A stretch of 64,000 nucleotides of DNA from Candidatus Zhuqueibacterota bacterium (GCA_034506315.1 JAPDPT010000005.1:36653-100652), one strand, 5' to 3'; shown: positions 49,519 to 64,000, counted from the stretch's first letter. The notes: a model not told the origin generated them from the letters alone. Program-made: numbers and translations.

Positions 49519-51009
49519 TCAGCTCCTGCTCTCATTGGGGATGGTGATCACAAACTGGCAGCCGCGGGAGAGGTTCTCGGCGTCGATCCTCCACCCGCAG
49601 CGCTGCGTGGCAATCTCGTAGGCGATGTAGCAGCCATAGCCGCTCTGATGGGCTGTGGTCTTGGTCGACACGTTCTCCAGGAACAGCCGTTTCACCCCAT
49701 TTTCCTCCAGAAGAAGATCCGGACGGATCCCCACCCCGTTGTCCCCGATGTAAACCTTGGACTCGCCTTTTTCCGGATCGTATACGGTCCGAATGTGTAC
49801 GGTGACCTGCCCATCGCCGGCGTGGTCCAGGCTATTCTGGATCAGCGGCTCAAAAACCTCCCACACGACGAACTCATTGACGTGGACCACAGGCAGATTC
49901 GGGTCCAGGTCCAGCTGGAACTGGTAGTCGCCAAGCGGGGCCGAGACGCGGCGGAAGATGTTGTCCACCAGGAACTGCAAGAGCTCGTTGATGTCCGTTC
50001 GGAACATCGGCCCTCGGATGGCCTGAATTGGCGGGTCGTAGGTCTTCATGTCGTAGATCACGCGGGAGATGAAATTAGCGTACTTGGACACGCGGTACTT
50101 GACCTCCTGGATGTTCTCCACGGACAGGCGCCGGAGATCTTCTTTGATGAAGCCCATGATCTTCTCGGCTTTGTGGTGGGTGTGGTAGATCCGCTTGGCG
50201 AAGAGGGCTTCCTTTTGGTGGTGAATTCGTTCCCGCAGTTGGCGCTCGCGTTCCTCGAAAAGCTGGCGCTGGGCCTCATCCCTCTCCTTGACCGTGTAGG
50301 ACGAGATGTAGAACATGGCAAGCAGGCCAAAGAAAATGAGGCCGGTGAAGATGAGGCTGCTTTCGTTGTAGCTGGAGACGATGCCGCTGGTTACGATCCC
50401 GAAGTCCGGGGCGTACTTCATGTAAAGGGCACCCATCAGCTCGCCCTTCGGGACGAAGGGGACGAAAACGTGGAACGTCCGCGGCGGTTCGACGAGGCTC
50501 CGGATCTGCTCCTGGGAGATGATTTCATCGAAATGCTCACGGTAGAGCTGGAGGGCGCGCGCGTAGGTCGTGTCGTTATCCGCCGGGGGCTCCATTCCCC
50601 AGAAAAGGGTTGCGAACAGCTGCTGCCCGTTGTCCACCGGATGGGCGTTGGCGCCATCGCCCAGAAGCAGGCAGACCTGCTGCACATGGTGCTGGAGCAG
50701 CTGCTCGCTCAGAATGATATTGAAAGCCTGGATGATCTTCTTCGCTTCGTCGTCGCTGACGAAAGGACGGCTCTCAAGGCTCGTCTCCAGAAGCAACTCA
50801 AGGGAAGTTGCGGTGAGATTCGCCAGCTTCTCCGCGAAATCGCGTTGGTACCACTCCTGTGTGTTCACGAGAAACTTCTGCAGGGAGACCTTATGGATAA
50901 ACGACACTAACACCTGGAAGAAGACGAGCACCGAGAGGAGCACCATCAGGTGTTTCAGCTCGAAGTGATAGGGCCTCACCTTATCCATTAACTTCTGCAC
51001 GTACCTCAT
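49519..51009 (-). CDS. Sensor histidine kinase (membrane-anchored, HATPase_c)
   Basis: N-terminal TM segment MVLLSVLVFFQVLVSF. The C-terminal GHKL ATPase stretch is ...LIQNSLDHAGDG...IGDNGVGIRPD...GYGCYIAYEIATQRCGW. Its stop lies 5 nt before the regulator start, so the two are operonic. Confidence 0.75.
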   Translation of the reverse strand: MRYVQKLMDKVRPYHFELKHLMVLLSVLVFFQVLVSFIHKVSLQKFLVNTQEWYQRDFAEKLANLTATSLELLLETSLESRPFVSDDEAKKIIQAFNIILSEQLLQHHVQQVCLLLGDGANAHPVDNGQQLFATLFWGMEPPADNDTTYARALQLYREHFDEIISQEQIRSLVEPPRTFHVFVPFVPKGELMGALYMKYAPDFGIVTSGIVSSYNESSLIFTGLIFFGLLAMFYISSYTVKERDEAQRQLFEERERQLRERIHHQKEALFAKRIYHTHHKAEKIMGFIKEDLRRLSVENIQEVKYRVSKYANFISRVIYDMKTYDPPIQAIRGPMFRTDINELLQFLVDNIFRRVSAPLGDYQFQLDLDPNLPVVHVNEFVVWEVFEPLIQNSLDHAGDGQVTVHIRTVYDPEKGESKVYIGDNGVGIRPDLLLEENGVKRLFLENVSTKTTAHQSGYGCYIAYEIATQRCGWRIDAENLSRGCQFVITIPNESRS

Positions 51010-51021
51010 GGCGGACCCTTC

Positions 51022-52362
51022 CTACTTGAGTACAAACTGGTTGGAAAAAATGGCGGCCTGCGCCTTTTCCAAAGCCTCTGCCACCGACATTTCCCCCCGA
51101 ATGGCCAGGTTTGCGTAATAGGAGAGGATATCCGACACCTGCGTGTAGCGCTCAATGTAGGGGCGGTGCACGCCGTGCTCCATCAGCCTTCGGTACAGGG
51201 ATAGATCTGGGTGCGCCGCGAGGAACGAGGTGTCTGCGTAGATGGACTGCAAGACGGGGATGTACCCGGAGGTTTCGTAGAGGATCTTCTGGTTCTGCTC
51301 TTCAAGGAGGAAACGCACAAAAGTCAGGGCAGCCCTCCCGTTGCGGGAGAATCGCGAGATCATCAGGTTCCATCCGCCGAACACGAAGGCGGGCCGCCCC
51401 CCGGCAAAGTGCGGAAGCGGCGCCAGACCGAAGTTCGACAAGGGAGCGGTCCTTTCAATCTGTTCCCGGTAGTGGAGGAGAAACCCTGGCCAGCCGCGGA
51501 AGAAGATCGCGTTGTGATCCAAGGCGTACATGTAGCTCAGGATCTCGTCGAAGAAGACCACCTTGGGCGGCGTGGCGCGGTAGCGATGGACCAGGTCGGC
51601 GAGGAGCTGCAGGCTGCGCCGGGCCGCGGGCGTATTGACCCGAATCCTCCCCTCGGCATCCACGAGGGAATCCCCCAGGCTCATCACTCCCTCCACGAAA
51701 CTGCAGATGAGCCCCTCGTAGTTGTCCGCCGCGAAGAGGTAGTACGGGCTCGTCTTGGGGCTCCAGCGCTCGAACGCGGCTAAGAATTCTTCCCAGGAGA
51801 TCGAGCGCTGGACCTTCTCCTGGAGCGCCGGCCAGTCCGGAAGTTGTTGCAGGAGGTCCTTGCGGTAGTACATCAGGCCGATGTCCAGGTAGAGGGGCAC
51901 GGCCATCAGCCTTCCCTGGTAGTAGCAGGAGGTCAAAGCATAGGGCAGAAGGCGCGCGCGATCTGCGTGCGTGAAGTAGGCGTCGAGCGGCTCCCCCCAC
52001 TTGGCGAAGCGCGGTACCCAGATGACGTCCACCGAAAACACGTCGATGCGGTCGCTCTTGCTGCGAAGGGCCCGTGCCAGAAGCTCCTTGCGTTCGTTGG
52101 TGCTGAAGCGGGTGAAGGGCAAATGGACCGTAATGACCTGGTAACGATTGCGGTAGCGTTCGTTGAAGCGCCGCACAATCTCCTGGTGGGCAGGGGAAAT
52201 GTTGTCTGCGTAGTAGATTTTCACCACAGGCGGGCGCGCCGGTGAGGTCAGAATCGCCGGACCGACGATAATGGCCAAGATCGCCACCCCAATCACCGCA
52301 AACGTGACCCCCCAGAGCACGCGGCGCCCAAACTTCTCCTCCTGTTGCTCTTCCATGGGCAA
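51022..52362 (-). CDS. Extracellular solute-binding protein (family-1 sugar ABC-type SBP) with no cognate permease; likely a sensor-associated ligand-binding component
   Basis: N-terminal membrane anchor/signal VLWGVTFAVIGVAILAIIVGPAIL. An SBP_bac_1-like body follows (...VDVIWVPRFAKWGEPLDAYF...). TTG start at 52362 with a GGAGGTG RBS. Directly followed by the kinase and regulator genes. Confidence 0.7.
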   Translation of the reverse strand: MPMEEQQEEKFGRRVLWGVTFAVIGVAILAIIVGPAILTSPARPPVVKIYYADNISPAHQEIVRRFNERYRNRYQVITVHLPFTRFSTNERKELLARALRSKSDRIDVFSVDVIWVPRFAKWGEPLDAYFTHADRARLLPYALTSCYYQGRLMAVPLYLDIGLMYYRKDLLQQLPDWPALQEKVQRSISWEEFLAAFERWSPKTSPYYLFAADNYEGLICSFVEGVMSLGDSLVDAEGRIRVNTPAARRSLQLLADLVHRYRATPPKVVFFDEILSYMYALDHNAIFFRGWPGFLLHYREQIERTAPLSNFGLAPLPHFAGGRPAFVFGGWNLMISRFSRNGRAALTFVRFLLEEQNQKILYETSGYIPVLQSIYADTSFLAAHPDLSLYRRLMEHGVHRPYIERYTQVSDILSYYANLAIRGEMSVAEALEKAQAAIFSNQFVLK

Positions 52363-52366
52363 GAGC

Positions 52367-53131
52367 TCACCTCCTGCGGAAAATCTGAACGTGGTCGTAC
52401 AGAGCCTGGGCTGGGAGGTTGCTGTCGTCTCTGGGCCCCGCCCAGGCCACCGATTCCGAATACCAGAGGTTCATCATCACCTGCATCCGCAGATCGGGCA
52501 CGTGCGTCGTGTCCGCCACCTGATGGATCAGCTTTCCGTCGGCGTACCAGCGTACCACCCCCTCCTCCCATTCGATCGAATACTCGTGAAAGTCGGCCGC
52601 GGCATCGAACGGCAGAGCGATGACCTTGGGCCATTGGTGCCCGGCGTCCCCCGCATTGTTCGCAGCGCCCTCAGGCCCCGGATTGTAGTAGATATTCAGG
52701 TGGATCTTGCGTGTATCCTTGCCCAGGAACTCGATGTCGATTTCCTGCCAGGGATTGTACCGGTAGAGGAAAAACGAGCTAACGATCCCGCTCCCCCGCG
52801 CAGCCTTCATCCGCACAGAAAACCTACCGTACAGGTATGAGGAACGCGTCCGAAGCTCCCCGCCGGTGTAGTTCCGGTCCAGGTAGAACTCGGGTCGGAG
52901 CGTGAGGACGAGTTTACCGTCCTGCACTGTGACGTTCTCCGGCTTGAAACGGGCCGCGTTGTACGGGAAGGTGTGAGTGGCTTTCTCCCAGCGCGTTTCG
53001 TTGAGCGTGTCGAAGGGCTCGTCGAGGATGAGTTTCCAGGGCGATGGCTCAGGTGCAGTGGACGATTTCGAACATCCCCACGCAAACAAGACCCACGTGA
53101 TCCAAAGGACCGGCCCCACGCGCTTGCCCAT
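52367..53131 (-). CDS. GH16 beta-glucanase lipoprotein (paralogue of the CTD-bearing GH16 at 21790..23589)
   Basis: Lipobox ...VLFAWGCSKSS. GGELRTRSSYLYGRFSVRMKAARGSG and the catalytic WQEIDIEFLG (ExDxE) are present. 254 aa with no CTD. ATG at 53129-53131 with a GGGAGG RBS. Confidence 0.85.
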   Translation of the reverse strand: MGKRVGPVLWITWVLFAWGCSKSSTAPEPSPWKLILDEPFDTLNETRWEKATHTFPYNAARFKPENVTVQDGKLVLTLRPEFYLDRNYTGGELRTRSSYLYGRFSVRMKAARGSGIVSSFFLYRYNPWQEIDIEFLGKDTRKIHLNIYYNPGPEGAANNAGDAGHQWPKVIALPFDAAADFHEYSIEWEEGVVRWYADGKLIHQVADTTHVPDLRMQVMMNLWYSESVAWAGPRDDSNLPAQALYDHVQIFRRR

Positions 53132-53285
53132 CGTTTACCTCCCGCCGGATTTCCGTTCGAAAGATAGTCAAGGAGCCAGCGGAAGGCAAACGGAAAACCT
53201 CCCGTTCGGATCGGAGCCCTTCGGGACAGGTTGCGAGTCTACTCGGAGAGCCCGAGCATCGTCGGGGTCTTGTCCCCGGCACAGC

Positions 53286-54020
53286 TCAGATGAAACGTTC
53301 TCGCTTCTGCAGGTTTCGGAGGCCAAAGAGGATCGCGAGGAGCGAGGCGGCCGTAAGGTACAGGCGGTTCTGGGCCACAAGGCTCGCCCACACCACCTCG
53401 TTCAAGCCGGAGGGGATCTGGTACGGATTCAGGAACACATTCCACTTGCTCGCCGCCAGAGGCTCGGCGGCGAGGAAGCAGCCAATGCCCAGGGCAACCA
53501 TGACCACCGCGGTTCCACTGCCACTGCGGAGCACCGTTGAAAGCATGAAGGCCAGGCTCCCCCAGAAGACCACGGGGAACATCACCTGCACTGCCATCGG
53601 CAGCACGGCCACGGGCATCACCGTGAGCGAGGCCAGCGCCCCCAGGGCCAGGAGGGTAGCCAGCGCCAGGACAAACATCATCACCAGACGGACGAGCCAC
53701 ACCTTGTACCGGTAGTCCGGGATCCCGAAAAGGATCTCGATCATTCGCACGTCGACGTCGCTCTGCAAGCCAAACGTCGACGGATAGAAGACCACCAGCA
53801 GCCCAGGAAAGAGCAGGTAGTAATACACCAGCCCGGGGCTCGGGGCAGCATCGGAGAACACAAAGATCCCATTGAGCAAGAGGAAGAACGCGACCGCCGC
53901 CAGGAAAAACAGCGGGAACTTGTTCCCGAAGATGATCTTCAGGTTGTAGCGGGCCATCCGGCTCACCAGGTCCGCATGGCTTGCCCAGCGACGGACAGCC
54001 ATCCTTCTCACCGTACTCAT
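53286..54020 (-). CDS. ABC-2 family transporter permease (GldF/NosY-like six-TM subunit)
   Basis: 244 aa with six hydrophobic segments. The N-terminal ...FFLLLNGIFVF is typical of ABC-2 permeases. The ATG at 54018-54020 overlaps the upstream stop in an ATGA arrangement, indicating translational coupling. Confidence 0.75.
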   Translation of the reverse strand: MSTVRRMAVRRWASHADLVSRMARYNLKIIFGNKFPLFFLAAVAFFLLLNGIFVFSDAAPSPGLVYYYLLFPGLLVVFYPSTFGLQSDVDVRMIEILFGIPDYRYKVWLVRLVMMFVLALATLLALGALASLTVMPVAVLPMAVQVMFPVVFWGSLAFMLSTVLRSGSGTAVVMVALGIGCFLAAEPLAASKWNVFLNPYQIPSGLNEVVWASLVAQNRLYLTAASLLAILFGLRNLQKRERFI

Positions 54021-57000
54021 GAATCCCCTTTGCGCTTCCCTTGGCTCAGGAGCCAGAGATAGGCGTCCTCCAGCGTCGGCCTTACGGGCACGGCTTCCGG
54101 AGCGGGTTGGATCTCGGATAGGCACCGGACCCGGATCCGATCCCGATCCCTCATATGGTGGACGATAAGCAGGCGTTGGCGAAGGGAATCGAGCTCTTCC
54201 GGGGCCGCGTACAGTTGCCACACACGCCCCTCCGCTTGGCGCGCCATGTCGCCAGGGGTTCCCGTGTAGATCAGCCGTCCGCCATTCAGCACTACGACCT
54301 GATTGCAGGAGCTGGAGATATCCTCGATGATGTGCGTGGAGAACAGCACGATACGGTTGCGGCTGAGTTCGACGAGCAAGTTCCGGAATCGAATGCGTTC
54401 GCGCGGATCCAGCCCCGCTGTAGGTTCGTCCACCACCAGAATGCGTGGCAGATGGAGGAGGGTCTGGGCGATGCCTATCCGCTGCTTCATCCCGCCGGAA
54501 AAGGAGCCGATGCGCTCGTGTTTGTGCTCCTCCATGTGCACAGCGCGCAGAACCTCGTCGATCCGCTTCTCCCGCTCCTCCCGATCCACCAGTCCCTTGA
54601 GGATCGCCTGATAGCTCAGGAACTCGTACGCGGTCATGTTTTCGTACACGCCGAATTCCTGTGGGAGATAGCCGATCAATGCCTGTAGCTCTTCCCGGCG
54701 CTCCTGGGTATCCACGCCGTTGATCCACACTTTGCCGTAGCTCTGTTCGAGGATCCCGCAGATGATCCGCATCAGCGTGGTCTTGCCTGCACCATTGGGC
54801 CCCACCAGACCAATCATGCCCTCACCTATCTCCAGGGAGACCCGGTCCAGAGCCTTAAACGGTCGTTTCCGGCGCCCCAGAATGGGGATGGACATCACGA
54901 GGCGGTAAAGGCCCTTCCGGAAACCCGCAAACCTGCCCTGGATCCGGGCAAGGCTCACCTCCTGGGCGTAAAGTCGCGCCGAGGCCTGATGGATCGCCAG
55001 GGCCAGATACCACACGAGGCCGGCAAAAAGCACCACCAGGGGTTGCCGCCAACGGAAGAAAAAGAACGTCAGGTTCAAGAAGGGGAAGCCCCAGAGAAAG
55101 ACGGGGCGAAAGATCCTGCCCGCACCTGCCGCCCACCGACCACCACCCCTCTCGGCCGAAAGACGGACCAGGGGCTCCACTTCACGCCACAGGTGCAGGA
55201 CGTAGAAGAAAACCGCCTGCGCCAGGAGAAGCTGCCAGATTCGAGAGCGCAGGTAGAAGTACACGAAGTACACCAGGAAGCCGAGCAGAGGCAGTTTCCA
55301 GATCCAGGTCTCCAGATCGCGCCACCGCTGAGCAACCCGACAGTCGCGCTGGCTCAAGCGCTGGCCCTTTTTCCACTCGCGGACAAAGCGAGAATCCCAG
55401 TCGTAGATCTTGACCAGGTTACGCACTCGAATGCGCAGGCTCTGGCCCTCCTCGAGCACGGATCGGTCGGCCCGCCGCAAGCTGGTCAGCCCAAAGTAGG
55501 TCAAAGCGGGAATTCCCAGCGCCAGCAGGACCAGGTCGGCCAGTCTCCAGACCGTCGTGTGGACGTGCGCGTAGATCTGCCAGGCGCCCATTGCAAAGGC
55601 GCCGTACTGCAGAGCCTTGAGCCGCCAGTCCAGACCCCGGAACCACTGCAAGGCCGTTTCCAGGCCGGTGTAAACCGTCGGGATGAAGACCAGGGTGAAC
55701 AGCGTGCTCACTGCCAGGCCCCCGATTACGGTGATGGCAAAAGGGGCCCCGATCTGCGCCACGTACTCCACCTGCCCCATCGCTAGGGGTAGCATGGCGA
55801 TCATCGTCGTGATGGCCGTGATCAGAATGGGACGCACACGCGCTTGCCCCGCCACCATCAGGGCACGAGATCGACGGAATCCCCGCTGCCGCAGGATGCG
55901 AGTGAAATCGATCAGGATGATGCCGTTGTTTACCACTACCCCGATCAGGATCAGAAAGCCCGTCAGCGTGTTCGCATTGAACAAAGAATTCTTGGTGAGG
56001 ATCAGGGCCCAGAGGGAACCCGTAGCTGCCAAGGGGATGGTGAACATCATCACCAGGGGGGTCACGGCAGATTCAAACACGGACGCCAGGATCATGTAGA
56101 TCAGAATGAGGGCGGCCGCGGTCAGGAAATAGAACTCGCCGAGCTCGGTCTCCTGATGGATGATCTGCACCGCAATTCCAGCAGGGAAAGACAAGCTGCC
56201 AAGGACTCGATCCACCTCGGCCCTGGCGGACTCCAGCAACGGCTTGGAGCTGTTCACATCCGGGAGAAATTGGTACACCACCTCGATCTGCTTTTCCTGA
56301 TTCAGCCTGCGGATGCTGCCCCGCCCGCTGGCAAGGACGATGCGGCTGAGCTCCTCCAGGGTCAGGAAGGCCTCGTCGCCAGCGCCCACGACGAGGCTAC
56401 GCAGGTCGTCCAGAGAGCGTTCAGTGACTCTCTCCTCCCCTCTCTCCTGGACCCGGATGGTGATGTCGTATTCCTCCGTCCCCTGCCGGTACCGCATCCC
56501 AGAGGAGAACTCGGTGCCAAACGTCGCCAGCTCCGCCGCCACCTGAGCCAGGGTTAGGTTGTACTGGCTCATCACGTTCTGGTCGAAGTAAAGGTGGACT
56601 TCGGGGCGGGCCCCGGACACGTTCAACCGCACGGTCTGCACGAAGGACAAGTTCTCCAGATAGTACCGGATGTCGTCCGCCACACGGAGCATCTGATCGA
56701 AGTCCTGGCCCCGGATTACCACCCTCTCCTGCTGCGTCCCGATGCCCAGGAGACGCTCCAGCTGCGCGGCAGGGTTGCTCATGCCGCCCCCCACCCGGAA
56801 CCGCCGGCTGGAGGCAGGCTGCTCGAAGCTGATTTCCGCCGTCCGGAAATCCTTCAAGCGGTTCTGAATCTCCTCCTTAACCTGCGCCAGATCTCTTCCC
56901 TTGATCTTGCGGTAGTTCTCCTTGAGGCGCACGGTGACCACCGCTTCATCTTCGTAGATCCGGCTGATGACGTCCTGTTTCTCCTCCAGGTTCTCCAGCC

Positions 57001-58753
57001 GGGCCTCAACCTCCCGTACGAGGCCGTCCGTGTTTTCCAGCGTGCTTCCCTGTGGCATCGTGACGTAGAGGGTGAGCTCGCTGGTGTCCACCTCGCGTGT
57101 CACGTTCAGGCTCACCGCCAGGGCAATAAAGATGGAGGCGAAAAAGGCTACCAGGGCAACAACGACGGTGCGCGCGGGGAATCGCAGGCACGACTTCAAC
57201 AGGAGGAGGTAAATCTGCATCAGGCGGTTCGTCCGCCGCACCTGGTAGAATTCCGCACCCCCGCTTCTTCCCGTCCTCGCGAGGTAAGAATGGACGATCA
57301 TTGGGACGAGAAGCAGAGCAACCAGGAGCGACACACTGAGGGTGGACACGATGGACACGCCGATCTGGCGGCCGATGAGCTTCACCAGAAAGTTTGAGGA
57401 GAAGGCGAAGGGCAAGAAGACGACCATCGTCGTGAGCGTGGAGGCCACGATCGACCTCCACACTTCGCTCGTCCCTTGGATCACCGCACGGTCGACGGGC
57501 TGGCCACGGCTCCGCAGGCGGTAGATGTTCTCGAGTACCACCACGCTGCTATCCAGGAGCATCCCCACGGCCAGGGCCATGCCGACCAGCGTCAGGCTGT
57601 TCAGGGACACGTGCAACGCGTAGAGCAGATTGAGGGCGGCCAGGATCGAGATGGGAATGGCGAGGGCGATGATCACCACCAGGCGCAGGTTCCGCAGGAA
57701 CACCCAAAGCACTCCGACGGCGAGTAGCCCTCCGGTCAGCGCGAGCTGCTTAATCAGCTGGATGTTGCGCTCCATCAGCTCAGCGGCGTCGCTCTGGACC
57801 ACGATCTCCAGCCCCTGCCACCCCAGCTGGCGATTGAGGTCGGCGATCACCCGCCGGGTGGCGTGGGCCAGCTGGATCAGATTGGTCTGCGCATCCCGCA
57901 CCAGAACGACGCTGACCGCCTCCTTGCCATTGACGCGACTGAGGGAGGTCTGCTCCTTCGTGCCGAAGTAGACCTGGGCCACGTCCTTCAGAAGGACAGG
58001 CCCTTCCTGCCTCACCACCAGGTTCTCCAGATCGCGGACGTCCGTGTAATCGGCCACCACGTTCACGAAATATTTCCGGTCCGCCCCGTACACATGGCCG
58101 ACAAAGGTGCGCTGGGCGCCGCTCTGGCGAATCAGGTTGCGGATTTGCGAGGGGGTCAGGTTGAAGGCCCGCAGGGCCTCAGGATCGAGGATGATCTCTA
58201 CGGAACGCTGCCTGCCGCCGAAGACCTGTACGCTGGCGATGCCGTCGATGCTCTCCAGCTTTGGGACGATCTTGTCGTCCACCACGTACCGAATCCAGTC
58301 GACATCCCCCGAGCCGCGAACCTGCAGGGTCATGAACTGATTGGTGAGCTGCTCGGTGTCCACCTTGTACACGTCCACCGAGAAGATCTCCGGAAGCTGC
58401 GCCCGCACCTGGTCCACCCTCTCCTGCAGACGCAGATAGGCGTACTTCATCTTGACGTTCGGGTTGAAGTAGACCACGATCATCCCCTGGCGTTGCTCGG
58501 CAAAGGATTCGATCCGGTCGATTCCCTCAAGGCCGCCGATCACACCCTCCAGGGGGATGATCGCCTGGCTTTCCAAGTATTCGGGGTCTACCTCCTGGCT
58601 GGCCGTGACCCGCACGATCAGGTAAGGAAGATCGGCCGAGGGGTACAGCTCCATGGGAAGCTGCCGATAGGAGATGTACCCCAGCATCGTCACGCCCACA
58701 AAGAGCATGCTCACCAGCGTTTTCCGGGAGATCACGAAGCGGATCAGGCCCAT
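54017..58753 (-). CDS. In-frame fusion: complete RND (AcrB/CzcA-type) efflux permease + about 6 additional TM helices + complete ABC ATPase domain
   Basis: The N-terminal ~1040 aa carry 12 RND TM segments with the two large periplasmic loops (MGLIRFVISRKTLVSMLFVGVTMLGY ... AITVIGGLAVSTLFTLVFIPTVY). Extra hydrophobic helices follow (WIWKLPLLGFLVYFVYFYL, IWQLLLAQAVFFYVLHLW, IFRPVFLWGFPFLNLTFFFF, LVVLFAGLVWYLALAI). The ABC domain is complete: Walker A GPNGAGKTT, Q-loop, signature FSGGMKQR, Walker B ILVVDEPTAGLD and H-loop STHII. There is no stop codon between the parts. ATG at 58751-58753; the ORF-track maximum is 58882 (TTG). Confidence 0.7.
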   Translation of the reverse strand: MGLIRFVISRKTLVSMLFVGVTMLGYISYRQLPMELYPSADLPYLIVRVTASQEVDPEYLESQAIIPLEGVIGGLEGIDRIESFAEQRQGMIVVYFNPNVKMKYAYLRLQERVDQVRAQLPEIFSVDVYKVDTEQLTNQFMTLQVRGSGDVDWIRYVVDDKIVPKLESIDGIASVQVFGGRQRSVEIILDPEALRAFNLTPSQIRNLIRQSGAQRTFVGHVYGADRKYFVNVVADYTDVRDLENLVVRQEGPVLLKDVAQVYFGTKEQTSLSRVNGKEAVSVVLVRDAQTNLIQLAHATRRVIADLNRQLGWQGLEIVVQSDAAELMERNIQLIKQLALTGGLLAVGVLWVFLRNLRLVVIIALAIPISILAALNLLYALHVSLNSLTLVGMALAVGMLLDSSVVVLENIYRLRSRGQPVDRAVIQGTSEVWRSIVASTLTTMVVFLPFAFSSNFLVKLIGRQIGVSIVSTLSVSLLVALLLVPMIVHSYLARTGRSGGAEFYQVRRTNRLMQIYLLLLKSCLRFPARTVVVALVAFFASIFIALAVSLNVTREVDTSELTLYVTMPQGSTLENTDGLVREVEARLENLEEKQDVISRIYEDEAVVTVRLKENYRKIKGRDLAQVKEEIQNRLKDFRTAEISFEQPASSRRFRVGGGMSNPAAQLERLLGIGTQQERVVIRGQDFDQMLRVADDIRYYLENLSFVQTVRLNVSGARPEVHLYFDQNVMSQYNLTLAQVAAELATFGTEFSSGMRYRQGTEEYDITIRVQERGEERVTERSLDDLRSLVVGAGDEAFLTLEELSRIVLASGRGSIRRLNQEKQIEVVYQFLPDVNSSKPLLESARAEVDRVLGSLSFPAGIAVQIIHQETELGEFYFLTAAALILIYMILASVFESAVTPLVMMFTIPLAATGSLWALILTKNSLFNANTLTGFLILIGVVVNNGIILIDFTRILRQRGFRRSRALMVAGQARVRPILITAITTMIAMLPLAMGQVEYVAQIGAPFAITVIGGLAVSTLFTLVFIPTVYTGLETALQWFRGLDWRLKALQYGAFAMGAWQIYAHVHTTVWRLADLVLLALGIPALTYFGLTSLRRADRSVLEEGQSLRIRVRNLVKIYDWDSRFVREWKKGQRLSQRDCRVAQRWRDLETWIWKLPLLGFLVYFVYFYLRSRIWQLLLAQAVFFYVLHLWREVEPLVRLSAERGGGRWAAGAGRIFRPVFLWGFPFLNLTFFFFRWRQPLVVLFAGLVWYLALAIHQASARLYAQEVSLARIQGRFAGFRKGLYRLVMSIPILGRRKRPFKALDRVSLEIGEGMIGLVGPNGAGKTTLMRIICGILEQSYGKVWINGVDTQERREELQALIGYLPQEFGVYENMTAYEFLSYQAILKGLVDREEREKRIDEVLRAVHMEEHKHERIGSFSGGMKQRIGIAQTLLHLPRILVVDEPTAGLDPRERIRFRNLLVELSRNRIVLFSTHIIEDISSSCNQVVVLNGGRLIYTGTPGDMARQAEGRVWQLYAAPEELDSLRQRLLIVHHMRDRDRIRVRCLSEIQPAPEAVPVRPTLEDAYLWLLSQGKRKGDS

Positions 58754-58844
58754 CGTCAACGAAGCTCGTTTTCGTCCGTCGCCGTACCTTCCGTCACCGC
58801 CTACCCCCTCGGAGGTAGCTGCTTTGCCGACCTCTGCGGGCAAC

Positions 58845-61800
58845 TCAGCTCTCTCTCGCCCGTCGCGGGCGGAGATGGTCAAGGACGTCGTACACGCACG
58901 GGATGACCACGAGGGTCAGCAATGTCGAGCTGGTCAACCCGCCGATCACCGCAAGGGCCAGAGGAGATCGGAGCGTTGCCCCTTCCCCAAGGCCGAAACT
59001 CAGAGGTAAGAGAGCCAGGATGGTCGTCAGACTGGTCATCAGGATTGGACGAATGCGCCGGGCACCAGCCTCGAGGATCGCTTCTTGCCGGGACATTCCC
59101 TCCCTGCGCAGCTGATTGATTGCGTCCACCAGGATGATCGAGTCGTTCACCGCAATCCCGGCCAGCACGATCATTCCGATGTAGGCAATGATGTTCAGGG
59201 GTCTGCCCAGCAAGTAGAAGAGCCACACCGATCCCACCAGCGCCAGAGGGATGGTGAGGAGAATCGTAAAGGGATGAACCAGGGATTCGAACTGGGAGGC
59301 TAGAACCATGTACACGAGCACGACCGAGAGGACCAGGGCGAACGAAAGGCTCCGAAACGCATCCTGTCGCTTTTCCTCCTCTCCGGTCACCGCCAGGCGA
59401 TAGTCTGGAGGCAGGGGCAAGTCCGCCAGCCTGCGCTCAACCTCTTTCACGACGTGGTCGAACGGACGGCCGCTCCGGACGTGGGCGGAGATCTTGCCGA
59501 TGCGGGTCTGGTTCCGCCGATGGATCTCCCGCGGCGCATAGCCCATCTCGATCCGGGCCACCTCGTCCAGCCTCACCTTCTCCGAACCTTGGGTGAGGTA
59601 AATATCCTCGAGCTGAGAAAGCGGAACCTTCGGTAGGCGCAGGGTGATGTCCCGTAGCTCTCCGCCCGCTTCCCACTGATCCACCACCCTGCCCTGCAAA
59701 ATGTCCCGTAGCTGCGAGGCGACCTGGCTTACCCCGAGGTTGTAAAGGCCGGCGCGCAGGCGGTCGACGACCACGTTGACCTCGGGCCTTCCCTTCTCGA
59801 AAGAAGTCTCGAGGTTAAAAAGATCGGGTACCGAGGCAAGCCGGGTTCTGGCCTCTTCGGTCAGCTTCTCCAGCTCGTCCAGGTCCTCGCCGCGAATCTC
59901 CACTGCCAGAGGCGCTTCTTCCGTCCCCAGAGCCAGGCGCAACGCTACCTGCTCCTGCACGAATTCCGCCTGTAGATCGGGCACCTCCGAAAGCACTTTT
60001 CCCAGCCTGGCAATGGCCTCTTCCGTTCGAATGCCCCCCTGCTTCTTCAGCCGCACGTAAACGGTGGCGGTATTCTCATCCTCAAAGACGGCCGTCTCGC
60101 TGGCGCTGATGTCCTCCGACGGCCCTATGTGGCTGTAGACAAGCTCCACCCCATCACCCAGGACCTGGCCGATCAGGGTCTCCACGTCCGAAACCGTTGC
60201 CTCCGTCCGAGCAAGCTCCGTCCCCTCAGGCAGGCGAAGGCGAATGGAGAATTCGCGCAGGTCAGCCCGAGGGACGAACTCCTTGCCGACATGGGGCAGG
60301 ATCAAGACCGTGAGGACCACGAGCAGGATGCTGGCCGCGATCACCTGCCCCTTGCGTCGGAGGATTTGCGCCAGCACTCCACGATACCAGGAGAAACGGA
60401 AGGAGCGAATGGGGGCCGTCGTCCGTGGTTGCAAGAAGCGCGCGCTGAGCACAGGAATCACCAGCATGGCTACAGCAAGGGAAGCGAGCAACGAGAAGGC
60501 TACCGTCCAGGCCTCGTCCCGGAACAGCTGTGCCGAGAACCCGTGCAGATAGACAATGGGCAGGAAAACCACTACAGTGGTCAAGGTAGAGGCTGTGATG
60601 GCGCCGCCGACCTGCGCTGCGCCCTCGACGACCGCCTCCCGTAAAGGTCGCCCCCGCTCCAGCAGCCGCGAGATGTTCTCCACCACCACAATGGCGTTGT
60701 CGACAAGCATGCCCGCCCCAAGGGCCAGGCCGCCGAGCGTCATAAGGTTCAGTGTCAGCCCGTTGAAATACATCATGTTGAAGGTGGCAATGATTGAGAT
60801 GGGGATAGCCAGGCTCACCACCAACGTGGAGCCGATCCTCCGCAGGAACACGTAGAGCACCATGACCGCCAGGACAATCCCCACCGCTGCGGTCTGCTTG
60901 ACTTCCCCAACGGCCTGGCGGATGAACTCGCCCTGGTCGCGCACGACTTCGATCCGGTAGCCGGGAAGCGCCCTGCGCAATTCCTCCAGCTTTTCGAGGA
61001 CCGCCCGCACCGCCTCCACCGTGTTGAAGCGCGTCTCTTTGTACACCGAAAGCCCCACACAACGCCGGCCGTTCAAGTGAACGAGGTTGTACGGATCCTT
61101 CGTCCGGTAGGAAATACGCGCCACGTCTTTCAGGTAGATCGGTGTACGGACCCCGGTCGCGTTCCCCGCAAGATCCGTCTCCTGACGGTAGCCGACGATG
61201 GCGCTGCCAAAGTCCTCCAGAGTCCGGAAGCTCCCCACTCCCCGAATCACGTATCGCAGGCCGAATTCGACTACGGAACCCCCGGAAACCTCGCGGTTCA
61301 GAGCCTGAATACGGGAGCTCAGGGCATCCAGGCTGAGACCGTAGGCCTCCAGAAGGTACGGATCCGTCTCGATGGCCACTTCCTTCTCTTCTTGCCCCGA
61401 CAGCCGTACCTCCGCAATCCCCTCCAGACGGATCAGCTCGTTCCGGAGGGTGTTCTCCGCCACTTTCCGCAGCTCGTCCAGATCCTCAATCTCCGGGTGC
61501 CAAAGGGCAAGTACCAGGATCGGCTCCGCGTTGGGGTCGTGCTGGCTGATGGTCAGTTCTTCGATATCCGGGTTCTGCGCGTACGGGGATAGGGTTTTCT
61601 GGAGGTCCAGAAAAGCCTCGTCCATGTCCGTGTTCCACGCGTACTCCACGGTCACCTGGGCTACCCCCACGCGGCAGATCGAGGAGACGTCCACCACGCC
61701 CCTCTGGCGGATGGCCAGCGCCTCGATCCCATCGACGAACAGCTTCTCCATCTCCTCGGGTGGCCTCTCGCCGGCCTTGACCTCCACGTAGATGCGCGGG

Positions 61801-61928
61801 TTGGTGTAGGCGGGGAAAAGATCCACCCCCAGGCGGCGGAAGGAAAGGTAACCCAGCAGGAGTACCGCCAGGACGGCCATCAGGACGGTGACGGGATAAC
61901 TCACGGCTGCGGAAACGAGTCTACGCAT
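58845..61928 (-). CDS. RND family efflux transporter permease (HAE1/AcrB-like), paralogue of the RND part of the downstream fusion
   Basis: 1027 aa with the canonical 12-TM topology and two periplasmic loops (MRRLVSAAVSYPVTVLMAVLAVLLLGYLSF...; ...AIVVVENISRL...). ATG at 61926-61928. Confidence 0.9.
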   Translation of the reverse strand: MRRLVSAAVSYPVTVLMAVLAVLLLGYLSFRRLGVDLFPAYTNPRIYVEVKAGERPPEEMEKLFVDGIEALAIRQRGVVDVSSICRVGVAQVTVEYAWNTDMDEAFLDLQKTLSPYAQNPDIEELTISQHDPNAEPILVLALWHPEIEDLDELRKVAENTLRNELIRLEGIAEVRLSGQEEKEVAIETDPYLLEAYGLSLDALSSRIQALNREVSGGSVVEFGLRYVIRGVGSFRTLEDFGSAIVGYRQETDLAGNATGVRTPIYLKDVARISYRTKDPYNLVHLNGRRCVGLSVYKETRFNTVEAVRAVLEKLEELRRALPGYRIEVVRDQGEFIRQAVGEVKQTAAVGIVLAVMVLYVFLRRIGSTLVVSLAIPISIIATFNMMYFNGLTLNLMTLGGLALGAGMLVDNAIVVVENISRLLERGRPLREAVVEGAAQVGGAITASTLTTVVVFLPIVYLHGFSAQLFRDEAWTVAFSLLASLAVAMLVIPVLSARFLQPRTTAPIRSFRFSWYRGVLAQILRRKGQVIAASILLVVLTVLILPHVGKEFVPRADLREFSIRLRLPEGTELARTEATVSDVETLIGQVLGDGVELVYSHIGPSEDISASETAVFEDENTATVYVRLKKQGGIRTEEAIARLGKVLSEVPDLQAEFVQEQVALRLALGTEEAPLAVEIRGEDLDELEKLTEEARTRLASVPDLFNLETSFEKGRPEVNVVVDRLRAGLYNLGVSQVASQLRDILQGRVVDQWEAGGELRDITLRLPKVPLSQLEDIYLTQGSEKVRLDEVARIEMGYAPREIHRRNQTRIGKISAHVRSGRPFDHVVKEVERRLADLPLPPDYRLAVTGEEEKRQDAFRSLSFALVLSVVLVYMVLASQFESLVHPFTILLTIPLALVGSVWLFYLLGRPLNIIAYIGMIVLAGIAVNDSIILVDAINQLRREGMSRQEAILEAGARRIRPILMTSLTTILALLPLSFGLGEGATLRSPLALAVIGGLTSSTLLTLVVIPCVYDVLDHLRPRRARES

Positions 61929-61952
61929 GGGATTGACTTCTCGCCTTTCCGG

Positions 61953-63005
61953 TTAGCGGATGATCTTGACCTGCGAACCGTCGCGCAGGGTTTCGAAGCC
62001 CTTTACCACCACGCGTTCGTTCTCTGCCAGACCCCGCACTACCTCCACCTGGTCGGGATTCTCCAGGCCGAGCTGCACGAGGCGCTCACGTGCCACCCCT
62101 CGCTCAACCACGTACACCACCTTCCCACGGCTGCGCGACAATACAATGTCCTTCGGGATCACCACCACCCCCTCGTGGCGCTCCACGATGATCTCCCCCT
62201 TCACGAACATTCCTGGGCGCAGGGTCCACTCCGGATTGTCGACCAGGATCGTCACTTTGAACGAGCGGGTATCCGGATCCAGAGCCGGTGAGACCTGGGT
62301 CACCCGCCCCTGTAACGTGTCCCGCGACGAGGCGTAATTCATGACGCGAACGGGCTGCTCCACTCTTACCCGACCAAGCTCCTTTCCGGGGAGATTCACC
62401 TCCAGGATCAGCTGATGATAGTCCATCAGACTGACCATGGGCTGGTTGGCGTTGACCTTCACCCCGGGCGTGTAGTAAGGCAGGTCCACAATCACTCCGT
62501 CGAAGGGCGCCCGTACTTCCAGTTTGCCCAGCTGGAGCTGAGCGTACTGGTAGTTGTACTGAGCGTCCATCAGGGCTTTCTCCGCCTCGCGCAGTTCCCG
62601 CAGGGTCACGCCCCCCTTCTCGTACAGGGATTTCTGCTTCTCGTATTCTTGCTTCGCAATGTCCAGGTTCAGCTTTTGGCTCTCGATCTTGATGTTGTTT
62701 TCCAGCTCGGGATTCTCCAGCCGAATGATAAGCTCGCCCTTCTTGGCCAGATCTCCGAGGGCGTAGGGCTTCTGGGTGCGCGGATTCCTCTGCAGGTGGT
62801 AGAATCCTTCGGTCTCTGAGACAAGCTGAGCTTCACGCACCGCGCGCACCGTTCCGGTGACGACCACAAACTCCTCAATGGAGCCCAGTTCGACGTCCAT
62901 GACTGAAACCGGAACGGCGATCTCCGCCCCCGTCTGTACCTCTTGGCGGCCACAGGCGACGCCCAGACTCAGCACCAAAATCCCGATGAGCAGGTTCTTC
63001 CTCAC
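61953..63005 (-). CDS. Efflux RND periplasmic adaptor subunit (membrane fusion protein, HlyD/AcrA family) lipoprotein
   Basis: A lipoprotein signal ...RKNLLIGILVLSLGVACG runs from the GTG at 63003-63005, with a GAGGGAG RBS. The body has coiled-coil and beta-barrel MFP features (...LGKLEVRAPFDGVIVDL...). Confidence 0.8.
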   Translation of the reverse strand: MRKNLLIGILVLSLGVACGRQEVQTGAEIAVPVSVMDVELGSIEEFVVVTGTVRAVREAQLVSETEGFYHLQRNPRTQKPYALGDLAKKGELIIRLENPELENNIKIESQKLNLDIAKQEYEKQKSLYEKGGVTLRELREAEKALMDAQYNYQYAQLQLGKLEVRAPFDGVIVDLPYYTPGVKVNANQPMVSLMDYHQLILEVNLPGKELGRVRVEQPVRVMNYASSRDTLQGRVTQVSPALDPDTRSFKVTILVDNPEWTLRPGMFVKGEIIVERHEGVVVIPKDIVLSRSRGKVVYVVERGVARERLVQLGLENPDQVEVVRGLAENERVVVKGFETLRDGSQVKIIR

Positions 63006-63053
63006 GGAGCTCCCTCGCACTTCAGTCCATGCCGCAGCAGTTTCCAAGCGATG

Positions 63054-64000
63054 TCACCGTCGGTCCACACTCAGCACCGATCGGCCTTTCTCGAAGTCCC
63101 ACAACGACTGCACTTTCAGGTCCAGCAAGGCAATCTTGTAGTCGATCAGGGACTTGACCAGATTTAGCTTGGCCTGCGAGAGCTGGTTCTGATAAAGGCT
63201 CAGGTCCATGCTGGTCAAATCCCCGTTCCGGTAGCGCTCCAGGTTGATGTCGTAGGTGAGCTGGGCGTTGCGGACGTTCTGCTGGGCGATCTCCACCTGG
63301 ATTTCCAGATTCTTGAGCTGGCGGTACGCCTGGCGAATGCCGATCACAATGTTGGTCTGAGTCTCTTCCATCGACAGGCGGCGCGTCTTCACAACTGCCT
63401 CCGAGGCGCGGATCCGCGATTCCTTCTCTCCCCAGTCCCACAGAGGGATCTCGAGGGAAAGGGAGACCCGCTGGTTCTTGGTGGGAACCTCAAAGATGTC
63501 CCGCACGCTCTCGTCTGTCCCGATCACCCCGTAGGAAAGCGTGATATTGCCGCGGAACTCGTTCTGGGCCGAGACCTGGATCAGATCAAAAAGCGAGTTC
63601 TGAATGTCGATCTGCCTCTGGCGAAGCTCCATTCGGTACCGAAGCCCGTGGGCAACCGCCAGCTGCAGATCCACCGGCACCACCCGATGGGCGATGTCGG
63701 CCGTCACGGCCACAGAGTCCTCCAATGGCAGGCCGATGAGGTACTTGAAGTTGTCCAGAAGGTTTTCGTACGTGGTCTGCTCGTTGAAGACCTTGGAGCG
63801 GCTTGTGGCCAGGTTGAGCTCCGCCTGGTAGAGCTCCTCTTCCGCCGCGAGCCCAGCCTGCACCTTGTTCTGAATGATCCCGTAGCTGATCTCCTGATTT
63901 TGGAGCTCCTCTTGGGCGATGTCCACCCTCATCTTCTGCAGGTACAGATTGTAGAAAGCCTGGGTGACCTCCTTTTCCAGCGCAAGCCTCTGGATGTCGT
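63054..64000 (-). CDS. Outer-membrane efflux protein (TolC/OEP family), N-terminal part beyond the window edge
   Basis: Heptad-rich alpha-helical repeats typical of the OEP family (...LQNQEISYGIIQNKVQAGLAAEEELYQAELNLATSRSK...AQQNVRNAQLTYDINLERYRNGDLTSMDL...). The reading frame remains open to position 64000. The stop at 63054 is immediately upstream of the adaptor gene. Confidence 0.75.
   Translation of the reverse strand, partial: DIQRLALEKEVTQAFYNLYLQKMRVDIAQEELQNQEISYGIIQNKVQAGLAAEEELYQAELNLATSRSKVFNEQTTYENLLDNFKYLIGLPLEDSVAVTADIAHRVVPVDLQLAVAHGLRYRMELRQRQIDIQNSLFDLIQVSAQNEFRGNITLSYGVIGTDESVRDIFEVPTKNQRVSLSLEIPLWDWGEKESRIRASEAVVKTRRLSMEETQTNIVIGIRQAYRQLKNLEIQVEIAQQNVRNAQLTYDINLERYRNGDLTSMDLSLYQNQLSQAKLNLVKSLIDYKIALLDLKVQSLWDFEKGRSVLSVDRR

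What the first reader, a model, noticed from the sequence alone, without database searches (positions are those of the whole stretch)
53286..64000. Efflux operon with TolC, adaptor, two RND paralogues and an ABC module in one co-directional block
The gene order is OEP/TolC-like (63054 to the edge), periplasmic adaptor (61953-63005), RND-1 (58845-61928), RND-2::ABC fusion (54017-58753) and ABC-2 permease (53286-54020), all on the minus strand with short or overlapping junctions. Two RND permeases sharing one adaptor and OMF, plus an ATP-driven component, suggest a composite export system. The exported substrate is unknown; candidates include lipids, glycans or surface material related to the adjacent T9SS/glycan locus.
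Basis: partly seen in the sequence, partly recalled or inferred. Interest (0 to 1): 0.6.

Follow-up and report, generated by a model that had tools for sequence, protein, structure and literature searches.

The report
Conserved RND pump fused to ABC ATPase
The block is a real efflux gene cluster in which one of two proton-driven RND pump proteins is permanently fused to an ATP-driven ABC motor; the fusion is conserved across a whole bacterial superphylum, and I found no study of it.

Summary
All five minus-strand genes sit at the stated coordinates: a partial OMF, an adaptor, RND-1, RND-2::ABC and a 244-aa permease.

The RND-2::ABC fusion is not an artefact. More than 120 protein clusters of 1540-1640 aa cover it end to end at 55-83% identity. 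They come from KSB1, Bacteroidota (including cultured Prolixibacter, Marivirga and Parabacteroides), Ignavibacteriota, Calditrichota, Krumholzibacteriota, Latescibacterota and Gemmatimonadota.

The block is the 3' five-sevenths of a rigidly conserved seven-gene cluster. A second ABC ATPase and a 1120-aa ABC-2 permease with a large periplasmic domain lie upstream of the OMF, beyond the window edge.

- The fused ATPase is catalytically canonical and is the best-conserved part of the protein.
- Its first beta-strand and A-loop are separated from the rest by a conserved ~178-aa four-helix insertion.
- Both RNDs keep the TM4 Asp and TM11 Arg.

Best reading: an ATP-driven ABC-2 module tethered to an HAE-type tripartite RND pump, forming a two-step relay. 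The substrate is unknown. The proposed link to the neighbouring glycan genes is not supported by synteny.

The parts
63054..64000 (-). Outer-membrane factor (TolC-like OEP), 3' part only. The gene runs off the window edge; about 170 N-terminal residues are missing.
   Evidence: Pfam OEP 4.3e-34, two stretches. Orthologues in syntenic loci are 478-556 aa.
61953..63047 (-). Periplasmic adaptor (membrane-fusion protein), probably a lipoprotein. An alternative GTG start lies at 63005.
   Evidence: Pfam HlyD_D23 1e-21 and HlyD_3. NCBIfam TIGR01730 RND_mfp, 196 bits against a cut-off of 94.9. The signal-peptide-like sequence VRKNLLIGILVLSLGVACG is read.
58845..61928 (-). RND-1: stand-alone HAE-type RND permease, 1027 aa, 12 TM.
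   Evidence: ACR_tran 5.5e-223 over the full length. The best solved relative is MdtB 9lyq, 1e-94. TM4 MLVDNAIVVVEN, TM10 AVNDSIILVD, TM11 RIRPILMT.
55667..58753 (-). RND-2 domain of the fusion protein (aa 1-1029): complete 12-TM HAE-type RND permease.
   Evidence: ACR_tran 8.4e-168 over aa 4-1029. Best solved relatives are CmeB and MdtB. The TM4 Asp and TM11 Arg are kept across the family. 30% identical to RND-1.
55481..55627 (-). First linker hairpin (aa ~1043-1091): two helices after RND TM12. They are inferred to re-enter the membrane and return the chain to the cytoplasm.
   Evidence: AF2 helices 44-64 and 68-92 of model m7723d6b72701. Hydropathy and apparent insertion energies. No gaps and 44% pairwise identity across 52 orthologues. 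The first helix is only amphipathic, so the topology is inferred.
55400..55444 (-). Detached beta-1 strand and A-loop of the ABC ATPase (SLRIRVRNLVKIYD, aa ~1104-1118).
   Evidence: K1115 and Y1117 are invariant in 52 orthologues. AF2 assigns a beta-strand at model residues 109-118. It aligns with ABC1's N-terminus MNISINGLNMVYKGGKRALDDVNLEI.
54872..55399 (-). Insertion of ~176 aa inside the ATPase, between beta-1 and beta-2 (aa 1119-1294): one amphipathic helix, four long aromatic-rich hydrophobic helices and a pre-NBD helix.
   Evidence: AF2 helices 123-138, 145-168, 172-202, 207-236, 239-264 and 277-289. Insertion length is 164-203 aa (median 178) in all 52 orthologues, with about 1% gaps. 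The linker sequence occurs only in this family: 94 clusters among 1.84 billion representatives.
54017..54871 (-). ABC ATPase core plus C-terminal domain (aa 1295-1578) of the fusion, DrrA/NosF/ABCA class. The stop codon overlaps the next gene's ATG.
   Evidence: ABC_tran 6.3e-31. Walker A GPNGAGKT, Q-loop, signature FSGGMKQR, Walker B VVDEPT and H-loop STH are all invariant. Best PDB relatives are ABCA3/4/1, TM_1403 4yer, LptB and NosF. The NBD core has the highest conservation in the protein, 0.79.
53286..54020 (-). 244-aa six-helix membrane protein: type V (ABC-2 fold) permease, the presumed partner of the fused ATPase.
53131..53285 (-). Structured intergenic RNA with a GC stem followed by a U-rich tract: a possible intrinsic terminator closing the cluster.
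   Evidence: MFE -74.5 kcal/mol against -60.7 for shuffles, z = -3.45, 0 of 200 shuffles as stable. The simple terminator scan did not flag it. Weak evidence.

Best explanation
The block is the distal part of a conserved seven-gene envelope-spanning export machine specific to the FCB superphylum. The gene order is: ABC ATPase, ABC-2 permease with a large periplasmic domain, OMF, adaptor, RND-1, RND-2::ABC ATPase, small ABC-2 permease.

Shown:
- Two HAE-type RND permeases share one adaptor and one OMF.
- RND-2 is covalently continued by about six helices and a catalytically canonical DrrA/NosF-class ATPase.
- That ATPase's beta-1/A-loop is split from its core by a conserved four-helix insertion.
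- The translationally coupled downstream gene encodes a type V (ABC-2 fold) permease.
- Both RNDs retain the TM4 Asp and TM11 Arg of the proton pathway.

Inferred mechanism:
1. The fused ATPase and the small permease form an ATP-driven ABC-2 exporter or floppase that is physically docked on the RND assembly. They may do this together with the stand-alone ATPase and the large permease encoded upstream.
2. This module moves an amphiphilic or lipid-like substrate from the cytoplasm or inner leaflet to the periplasmic side of the inner membrane.
3. There the proton-driven RND trimer captures the substrate and expels it through the adaptor and OMF. The trimer is possibly an MdtBC-like heterotrimer, which would also solve the mismatch between a trimeric RND and a dimeric ATPase.

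This would be a hard-wired two-step relay using both ATP and the proton-motive force.
For: The fusion is real and ancient.
- More than 120 clusters cover the full length at 55-83% identity.
- It is still fused at 33-37% identity in Latescibacterota.
- It is present in cultured Bacteroidota.

The seven-gene order is constant.
- It is found whether the search is anchored on the fusion, on the small permease or on the large permease.

The ATPase is under the strongest purifying selection in the protein.
- NBD core pairwise identity is 0.79, with all catalytic motifs invariant.
- The linker and insertion are constant in length and gap-free, and unique to this family.

The ATPase belongs with ABC-2 permeases.
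- It falls in the class that pairs with ABC-2 permeases.
- Its nearest stand-alone relatives sit next to ABC-2 permease genes.
- The downstream protein has the ABC-2/type V fold and overlaps the fusion gene by ATGA.

The RNDs look functional.
- Both keep the TM4 Asp and the TM11 Arg/Thr.
- Both have an HAE-type TM4 motif and full porter and docking regions matching CmeB and MdtB.

Established knowledge supports the logic. RND pumps capture substrates from the periplasm or outer leaflet. Type V ABC exporters extrude lipids, glycolipids and amphiphiles. MdtBC is a precedent for adjacent RND paralogues forming heterotrimers (PMC8277102).
Against: - There is no experimental or expression data. Co-transcription, complex formation, stoichiometry and substrate are all untested.
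- The tools gave only single-chain models, so no contact between the fused ATPase, the extra helices and the small permease has been shown.
- The first linker helix is only amphipathic, and the four inserted helices are only marginally hydrophobic (apparent insertion energies 2-6 kcal/mol). Their membrane topology is therefore inferred from parity, not demonstrated.
- A homotrimer of the fusion would carry three ATPase domains, which fits a dimeric ABC engine poorly unless ABC1 or RND-1 takes part.
- No conserved neighbouring biosynthetic genes point to a substrate.
Confidence: 0.5

Rival explanations
1. ATP-gated or ATP-assisted RND. The fused ATPase does not run a separate ABC transport pathway. 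Through the six tethering helices it directly drives or gates the conformational cycle of RND-2, or the assembly of the tripartite pump. This would make a dual-energised or ATP-regulated RND. The 244-aa protein would be an accessory or anchoring subunit.
For: - The ATPase is covalently attached and sits next to TM12, and the intervening helices are conserved.
- The four-helix insertion lies inside the ATPase, at the beta-1/beta-2 hairpin next to the A-loop. That position is well placed to transmit the nucleotide state to the membrane.
- Precedent from general knowledge: ArsB works as a secondary carrier alone and as an ATP-driven pump when bound to ArsA.
Against: - The downstream protein has a complete type V permease fold with the usual six helices. 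That fold is hard to explain as a mere anchor.
- The ATPase class and its stand-alone relatives always pair with ABC-2 permeases.
- RND-2 keeps the same proton-pathway residues as RND-1, so nothing suggests it needs another energy source.
Confidence: 0.2
2. Co-expressed but mechanistically independent transporters. An ABC-2 exporter and an RND pump act on the same compound or pathway. They became fused only to secure stoichiometric co-expression or co-localisation, with no hand-over of substrate or conformational coupling.
For: - Gene fusions of pathway partners are common.
- The upstream pair, ABC1 plus the large permease, looks like a self-sufficient ABC-2 transporter.
- No inter-subunit contact has been demonstrated.
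Against: - The fusion, the unusual split ATPase and the seven-gene order have stayed unchanged across at least seven phyla, down to 33-37% identity.
- No convincingly unfused version was found. The only candidate, P0272, lies on a 2.4-kb contig of a fragmented MAG.
- Conservation this rigid argues for a structural requirement.
Confidence: 0.2
3. The exported substrate is glycan or surface material made or processed by the adjacent T9SS/glycan locus.
For: - GH16, a solute-binding protein and a sensor kinase lie directly downstream on the same strand.
- A Melioribacteraceae relative also has a GH16/CBM/Por_Secre_tail gene next to the cluster.
- The upstream large permease ends in a Golvesin/Xly carbohydrate-binding-like domain.
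Against: - The GH16/SBP/kinase neighbours are shared only with the closest relative, L006.
- They are absent in a 74%-identical KSB1-like relative and in Krumholzibacteriota, Gemmatimonadota, Cyclobacteriaceae and other loci.
- A structured, terminator-like element separates the cluster from GH16.
- HAE-type RNDs and type V ABC permeases typically handle amphiphiles and lipid-linked molecules, not free polysaccharide.
Confidence: 0.07
4. The RND-2::ABC fusion is an assembly, frameshift or gene-calling artefact.
For: None found.
Against: - The frame is an uninterrupted 1578 codons.
- More than 120 independent clusters of the same length come from NCBI, JGI, ENA and Logan assemblies, including complete genomes of cultured strains.
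Confidence: 0.01

Closest known systems
MdtABC-TolC / MuxABC-OpmB (tripartite RND pumps with two RND paralogues forming a heterotrimer)
   Same: One adaptor gene is followed by two adjacent RND permease genes. RND-1's best solved relative is MdtB. Both are HAE-type and work with an OMF.
   Different: The paralogues here are only 30% identical. One carries a C-terminal ABC ATPase with six extra helices. The cluster also encodes two ABC-2 permeases and a second ATPase. Heterotrimer formation was not tested.
ABC-2 / type V exporters with separate ATPase and permease (NosFY, DrrAB, PmtCD, Rv1217c-Rv1218c, Wzm-Wzt)
   Same: The fused ATPase scores best against the DrrA, GldA, NosF and ABCA models and structures. 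It has a DrrA-type C-terminal LEDAYL motif. The 244-aa protein has the NosY/Rv1217c/ABCG/PmtD fold.
   Different: The ATPase is fused to an RND permease, and its beta-1/A-loop is separated from the core by a ~178-aa helical insertion. The permease matches no ABC-2 sequence family. No curated NCBIfam cut-off is reached.
ABC-type tripartite pumps (MacAB-TolC, DevBCA-TolC) and adaptor-associated ABC-2 systems (YbhGFSR, RbbA/YhhJ/YhiI)
   Same: An ATP-driven inner-membrane transporter is encoded together with an HlyD-family adaptor and an OMF.
   Different: MacB has the type VII fold with a large periplasmic domain, whereas the permease here is type V and has none. In this cluster the adaptor scores as an RND-type adaptor, and full RND permeases are present as well.
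Cooperation of single-component inner-membrane transporters with AcrAB-TolC; SecDF (RND superfamily, proton-driven) assisting ATP-driven SecA/SecYEG
   Same: Conceptually the same two-step logic. One transporter crosses the cytoplasmic membrane, and an RND-superfamily machine acts from the periplasmic side. SecDF shows ATP-driven and proton-driven modules working on one substrate (PMC8277102).
   Different: In those systems the partners are separate proteins encoded apart. Here they are one polypeptide in one operon.
ArsAB arsenite pump
   Same: It is a precedent for a secondary-type membrane carrier being coupled to an ATPase (general knowledge).
   Different: ArsA is not an ABC ATPase and ArsB is not an RND. 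They are not fused, and there are no outer-membrane components.

Membership tests
RND superfamily, HAE-type trimeric efflux permease (both RND-1 and the RND-2 domain) | Full-length match to the AcrB/AcrD/AcrF model, with 12 TM helices and two large periplasmic loops | tested here: met
   ACR_tran 5.5e-223 (RND-1) and 8.4e-168 (RND-2), each covering model positions ~2-1020 of 1021. Hydropathy shows 12 TM segments in each.
RND superfamily, HAE-type trimeric efflux permease (both RND-1 and the RND-2 domain) | Transmembrane proton-relay residues (AcrB D407/D408 in TM4, K940 in TM10, R971/T978 in TM11) | tested here: inconclusive
   Both families keep Asp at the D407 position and Arg/Thr at the R971/T978 positions. 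They have Asn at the D408 and K940 positions. This is a one-carboxylate variant, and its function was not tested.
RND superfamily, HAE-type trimeric efflux permease (both RND-1 and the RND-2 domain) | Score above NCBIfam's curated cut-off for a multidrug efflux RND permease subfamily | tested here: not met
   RND_permease_2 scores 599.6 (RND-1) and 475.3 (RND-2) bits against a cut-off of 1250. Both are members of the superfamily but not of any curated subfamily.
HME (heavy-metal) RND | TM4 motif DFG...DGA...VEN, and a best match to the CusA/CzcA model | tested here: not met
   TM4 reads GAGMLVDNAIVVVEN (RND-1) and AVGMLLDSSVVVLEN (RND-2). The CusA/CzcA model scores below RND_permease_2 and below its own cut-off: 445 and 286 bits against 701.
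ABC ATPase (nucleotide-binding domain) | Walker A, Q-loop, ABC signature, Walker B Asp-Glu, D-loop, H-loop and A-loop aromatic residue | tested here: met
   GPNGAGKT, LPQE, FSGGMKQR, VVDEPTAGLD, STH and Y1117 are all invariant in 52 orthologues. ABC_tran scores 108 bits against a cut-off of 25.
GldA (gliding-motility ABC ATPase) / DrrA subfamily | Score above the curated equivalog or subfamily cut-off | tested here: not met
   GldA 182.5 bits against a cut-off of 402.6. DrrA 174.4 bits against 312.45. These are the closest models, but the fused ATPase is not a member of either.
ABC-2 / type V ABC permease (the 244-aa protein) | Six-helix type V transmembrane fold | tested here: met
ABC-2 / type V ABC permease (the 244-aa protein) | Match to a Pfam or NCBIfam ABC-2 membrane family | tested here: not met
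   No hit in Pfam (E up to 1), NCBIfam or PDB sequences. hhalign against the N-terminal ABC-2 domain of the large permease gave a probability of about 1%.
MdtBC-type heterotrimeric RND pump | Two adjacent RND paralogue genes downstream of a single adaptor gene | tested here: met
   The order adaptor, RND-1, RND-2 is found in the window and in all syntenic loci.
MdtBC-type heterotrimeric RND pump | Physical heterotrimer of the two paralogues | not testable with these tools
   This needs multimer modelling, cross-linking or cryo-EM.
MacB-type (type VII) tripartite ABC pump | Four-TM FtsX-fold permease with a large periplasmic domain between TM1 and TM2 | tested here: not met
   The small permease has six helices, no periplasmic domain and a type V fold.
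Operon (co-transcribed unit) | Same strand, short or overlapping junctions, conserved order, and no internal terminators | tested here: inconclusive
   Gaps are 6-91 nt plus one ATGA overlap. The order is conserved across phyla. Terminator-like sites occur no more often than in shuffles, and structured RNA appears only after the last gene. No transcript data are available.

The most novel reading that the evidence does not exclude
This is the first covalent chimera of a secondary (proton-driven RND) and a primary (ATP-driven ABC) transporter. It would work as one supercomplex, a dual-energised tripartite exporter. A type V ABC module, whose ATPase is wired into the membrane by an intradomain four-helix insertion, would feed or gate an RND (hetero)trimer. 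The need of the ATPase to dimerise would dictate the RND subunit stoichiometry, for example two RND-2::ABC to one RND-1, or pairing with the stand-alone ABC1.
Probability: 0.4. Interest if true: 0.9.

Novelty: new variant of a known kind. Interest (0 to 1): 0.72.

Why it matters
Tripartite efflux systems are classified by their single energy source: RND, ABC or MFS (PMC8277102). A long-standing question is how compounds in the cytoplasm or inner leaflet reach RND pumps, which capture substrates from the periplasmic side.

A conserved polypeptide that welds an RND permease to an ABC ATPase, always followed by a type V permease, works as a natural 'Rosetta stone' for such coupling. The system is present in cultivable Bacteroidota (Prolixibacter, Marivirga, Draconibacterium, Maribellus) and in human-gut Parabacteroides and Bacteroides. 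The hypothesis can therefore be tested directly by genetics, biochemistry and cryo-EM.

The split ATPase, with a membrane insertion between the A-loop and Walker A, is also an unusual ABC architecture in its own right. If the system exports an envelope lipid, glycolipid or lipoprotein specific to the FCB group, it could fill a gap in the envelope biogenesis of that group.

Tried and rejected
1. **Artefact hypothesis.** Rejected.
2. **'RND-2 has lost proton coupling and runs on ATP instead.'** Motif counts show that RND-1 and RND-2 share the same TM4 Asp and TM11 Arg. The extra TM10 Asp of this window's RND-1 is present in only about half of RND-1 orthologues. There is therefore no evidence for loss.
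3. **Homology of the linker helices.** I compared them by hhalign with the small permease and with the ABC-2 domain of the large permease. Probabilities were 1.3% or less. Foldseek of the linker+NBD model matched only the NBD part.
4. **Stand-alone 'linker+NBD' proteins.** A search of 1.84 billion representatives found only fragments. One 526-aa ORF (P0272) lies on a 2.4-kb contig with an in-frame stop 14 codons upstream. This is unresolved and probably reflects a poor assembly.
5. **Retrieving the window's own upstream DNA.** The protein is not in the position index. The upstream genes were therefore inferred from relatives: L089 at 74% identity, and L001-L003.
6. **Active M1 peptidase in the large permease.** HExxH was found in 0 of 26 sequences.
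7. **Synteny of the GH16/SBP/kinase genes with the pump.** Shared only with L006.
8. **Literature.** Seven full-text searches found no description of an RND-ABC fusion: plus one for golvesin. The library lacks most subscription journals and TCDB, so prior mention cannot be excluded.
9. **Consensus promoter/terminator scan.** Counts equalled chance.

Full report
**Observation.** The minus strand of 53286-64000 carries five consecutive ORFs exactly as described.
- 63054 to the edge: Pfam OEP, 4e-34. The frame is open to base 64000, so about 170 N-terminal residues are missing.
- 61953-63047: HlyD_D23/HlyD_3. It also passes NCBIfam RND_mfp (196 bits against a cut-off of 94.9).
- 58845-61928: a full-length ACR_tran match, 5.5e-223.
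- 54017-58753: ACR_tran over aa 4-1029 (8e-168) and ABC_tran over aa 1302-1446 (6e-31) in a single 1578-codon frame.
- 53286-54020: no family hit.

The gaps are 6-48, 24 and 91 nt. The last junction is an ATGA overlap. The fusion and the 244-aa protein are 100% identical to deposited proteins of a candidate division KSB1 MAG.

**Is the fusion real?** Yes.
- A search of 5.8 billion clusters returned more than 120 clusters of 1540-1640 aa covering 98-100% of the query at 55-83% identity. All carry ACR_tran plus ABC_tran. They come from NCBI, JGI, ENA and Logan assemblies of KSB1, Calditrichota, Krumholzibacteriota, Gemmatimonadota, Melioribacteraceae, Chlorobi-group and Latescibacterota.
- A scan of GTDB species genomes added cultured Bacteroidota: Prolixibacter bellariivorans ATCC BAA-1284, Draconibacterium mangrovi, Marivirga sericea and M. 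tractuosa, Maribellus maritimus, Parabacteroides massiliensis and Bacteroides sp. 224. It also found a Latescibacterota chromosome where the protein is still fused at 35-37% identity.
- Public annotation calls these proteins 'efflux RND transporter permease subunit' or 'AcrB/ABC-type ... ATPase subunit', and calls the small partner 'hypothetical protein'.
- Seven full-text literature searches found no study of such a fusion. A comprehensive 2021 review classifies tripartite pumps as RND-, ABC- or MFS-driven (PMC8277102).

**The unit is larger than the finding.**
- In every related locus with enough flank the order is: ABC ATPase (~295 aa), ~1120-aa protein, OMF, adaptor, RND-1, RND-2::ABC, ~240-aa protein.
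- The same cluster is recovered when anchoring on the small protein or on the 1120-aa protein. In those last two loci the stand-alone ATPase is the first gene, preceded by unrelated genes.
- A 74%-identical relative of the window's fusion (L089) has both extra genes directly upstream of the OMF. In this genome they almost certainly lie just beyond base 64000.
- The 1120-aa protein has about seven N-terminal hydrophobic segments with weak ABC2_membrane_2 similarity. JGI labels it a NosY-type permease.
- About 830 residues follow these segments. They contain a degenerate M1-peptidase-like stretch (no HExxH in 0 of 26) and a C-terminal Golvesin/Xly carbohydrate-binding-like domain.

**Anatomy of the fusion.**
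- After RND TM12 (aa ~1027), AlphaFold2 (52-sequence alignment, pLDDT 81.9) predicts two helices at aa ~1043-1091.
- Next comes a beta-strand at aa 1108-1117, followed by an amphipathic helix.
- Four long helices follow (aa ~1144-1263), then a short helix, and then the ATPase from aa ~1299.
- The strand sequence IRVRNLVKIYD aligns with the N-terminal beta-1/A-loop of the stand-alone ATPase (ISINGLNMVY...ALDDVNLEI). K1115 and the A-loop Tyr1117 are invariant.
- The ATPase is therefore split. Its beta-1/A-loop is separated from beta-2/Walker A by an insertion of 164-203 aa (median 178) that is gap-free in 52 orthologues.
- Parity is consistent with a cytoplasmic ATPase: two helices, then four. 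However, the first helix is only amphipathic and the others are marginally hydrophobic, so the topology is inferred.
- The linker sequence occurs nowhere else. It hit only 94 clusters among 1.84 billion representatives. The full-length ones are all 1550-1585 aa, with the linker at ~1025-1295.

**The ABC module.**
- All catalytic motifs of the fused ATPase are invariant: Walker A, Q-loop, signature, Walker B DE, D-loop and H-loop.
- Its core is the most conserved segment of the protein, with pairwise identity 0.79 against 0.52-0.77 for the RND parts.
- It is closest to the ABCA/DrrA/GldA/NosF/LptB class but passes no curated cut-off.
- Its nearest stand-alone relatives (46-49% identity) are followed by ABC-2 family permeases.

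**The RND pair.**
- RND-1 and RND-2 are 30% identical.
- Both are full-length, HAE-like permeases. Their best solved relatives are MdtB and CmeB, and their TM4 motif is GxLVDNAIVVxEN rather than the HME motif.
- Both families keep Asp at the AcrB D407 position and Arg/Thr at R971/T978, with Asn at the D408 and K940 positions.
- The additional TM10 Asp in this window's RND-1 is present in only about half of its orthologues.
- So nothing suggests that RND-2 has given up proton coupling.

**Mechanism.**
- Shown: the composition, the conservation, intact catalytic residues in both engines, and the fold of the small permease.
- Inferred: the fused ATPase and the small permease form an ATP-driven type V exporter or floppase docked on the RND assembly, possibly with the stand-alone ATPase and the large permease.
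- Inferred: that module hands an amphiphilic or lipid-like substrate to the periplasm-facing RND, which expels it through the adaptor and OMF.
- The mismatch between a trimeric RND and a dimeric ATPase could be resolved in two ways. One is an MdtBC-like heterotrimer of two RND-2::ABC and one RND-1. The other is pairing of each fused ATPase with ABC1. Both are speculation.
- Rivals are an ATP-gated or ATP-assisted RND, and independent transporters fused only for co-expression. Neither is excluded.

**Context.**
- The GH16, solute-binding protein and kinase genes downstream are syntenic only with the closest relative, L006, and not with L089 or other phyla.
- A strongly structured, U-tailed RNA element (z = -3.45) lies between the small permease and GH16.
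- The suggested link between the substrate and the neighbouring glycan/T9SS genes is therefore weak.
- The simple promoter/terminator scan was uninformative.

**Verdict.** The finding is a previously uncharacterised, widely conserved variant of tripartite efflux systems. An RND permease is covalently joined to an unusual split ABC ATPase within a seven-gene cluster. The substrate and the coupling mechanism remain to be determined.

Noticed in passing
window 53131-53285 (minus strand): The 154-nt spacer after the small permease gene folds much better than shuffles (MFE -74.5 against -60.7 kcal/mol, z = -3.45). It contains a GC stem followed by GGUUUUCCGUUU. This is a possible intrinsic terminator or regulatory leader for the GH16 gene. 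The consensus terminator scan missed it.
   Followed up: partly
window 49519-53131 (minus strand): GH16 (254 aa, signal peptide/lipoprotein-like), a solute-binding protein (446 aa) and an HATPase_c sensor kinase (496 aa) follow the pump on the same strand. In the close relative L006 the same genes are followed by a sigma-54 response regulator, a Por_Secre_tail cellulase and a GH116. This looks like a beta-glucan utilisation and regulation unit specific to this KSB1 lineage.
   Followed up: partly
L001:825-4175, L002:965-4333, L008:875-4216 (outside the window, upstream of the OMF in relatives): The ~1120-aa partner protein combines a NosY-like ABC-2 membrane domain with a periplasmic region of ~830 aa. 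That region contains a degenerate M1-peptidase-like stretch (no HExxH in 0 of 26) and a Golvesin/Xly carbohydrate-binding-like C-terminal domain. It has been mis-annotated as 'xanthan lyase' in one genome. Its family (about 2100 clusters) appears to occur only in this seven-gene cluster; both contexts checked showed it there.
   Followed up: partly
L088:65-1645: A 526-aa ORF (P0272) encodes only the linker plus ATPase. It has an in-frame stop 14 codons upstream and a small permease gene downstream, on a 2.4-kb contig of a highly fragmented MAG. It is either a rare naturally split version of the fusion or a frameshift or assembly error.
   Followed up: partly
L037 (CAYFVQ010000257.1): A MAG labelled 'uncultured Eubacteriales' carries the OMF-adaptor-RND-1-fusion-permease cluster. 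This is out of place for a Gram-positive lineage, so the contig is probably mis-binned.
   Followed up: no
L089:9783-10004: In the 74%-identical relative, a 73-aa ORF is called in the spacer between RND-1 and the fusion gene. In the window the corresponding 91-nt spacer is covered only by the upstream TTG extension of the long ORF (54017-58882). It is probably not a gene.
   Followed up: no
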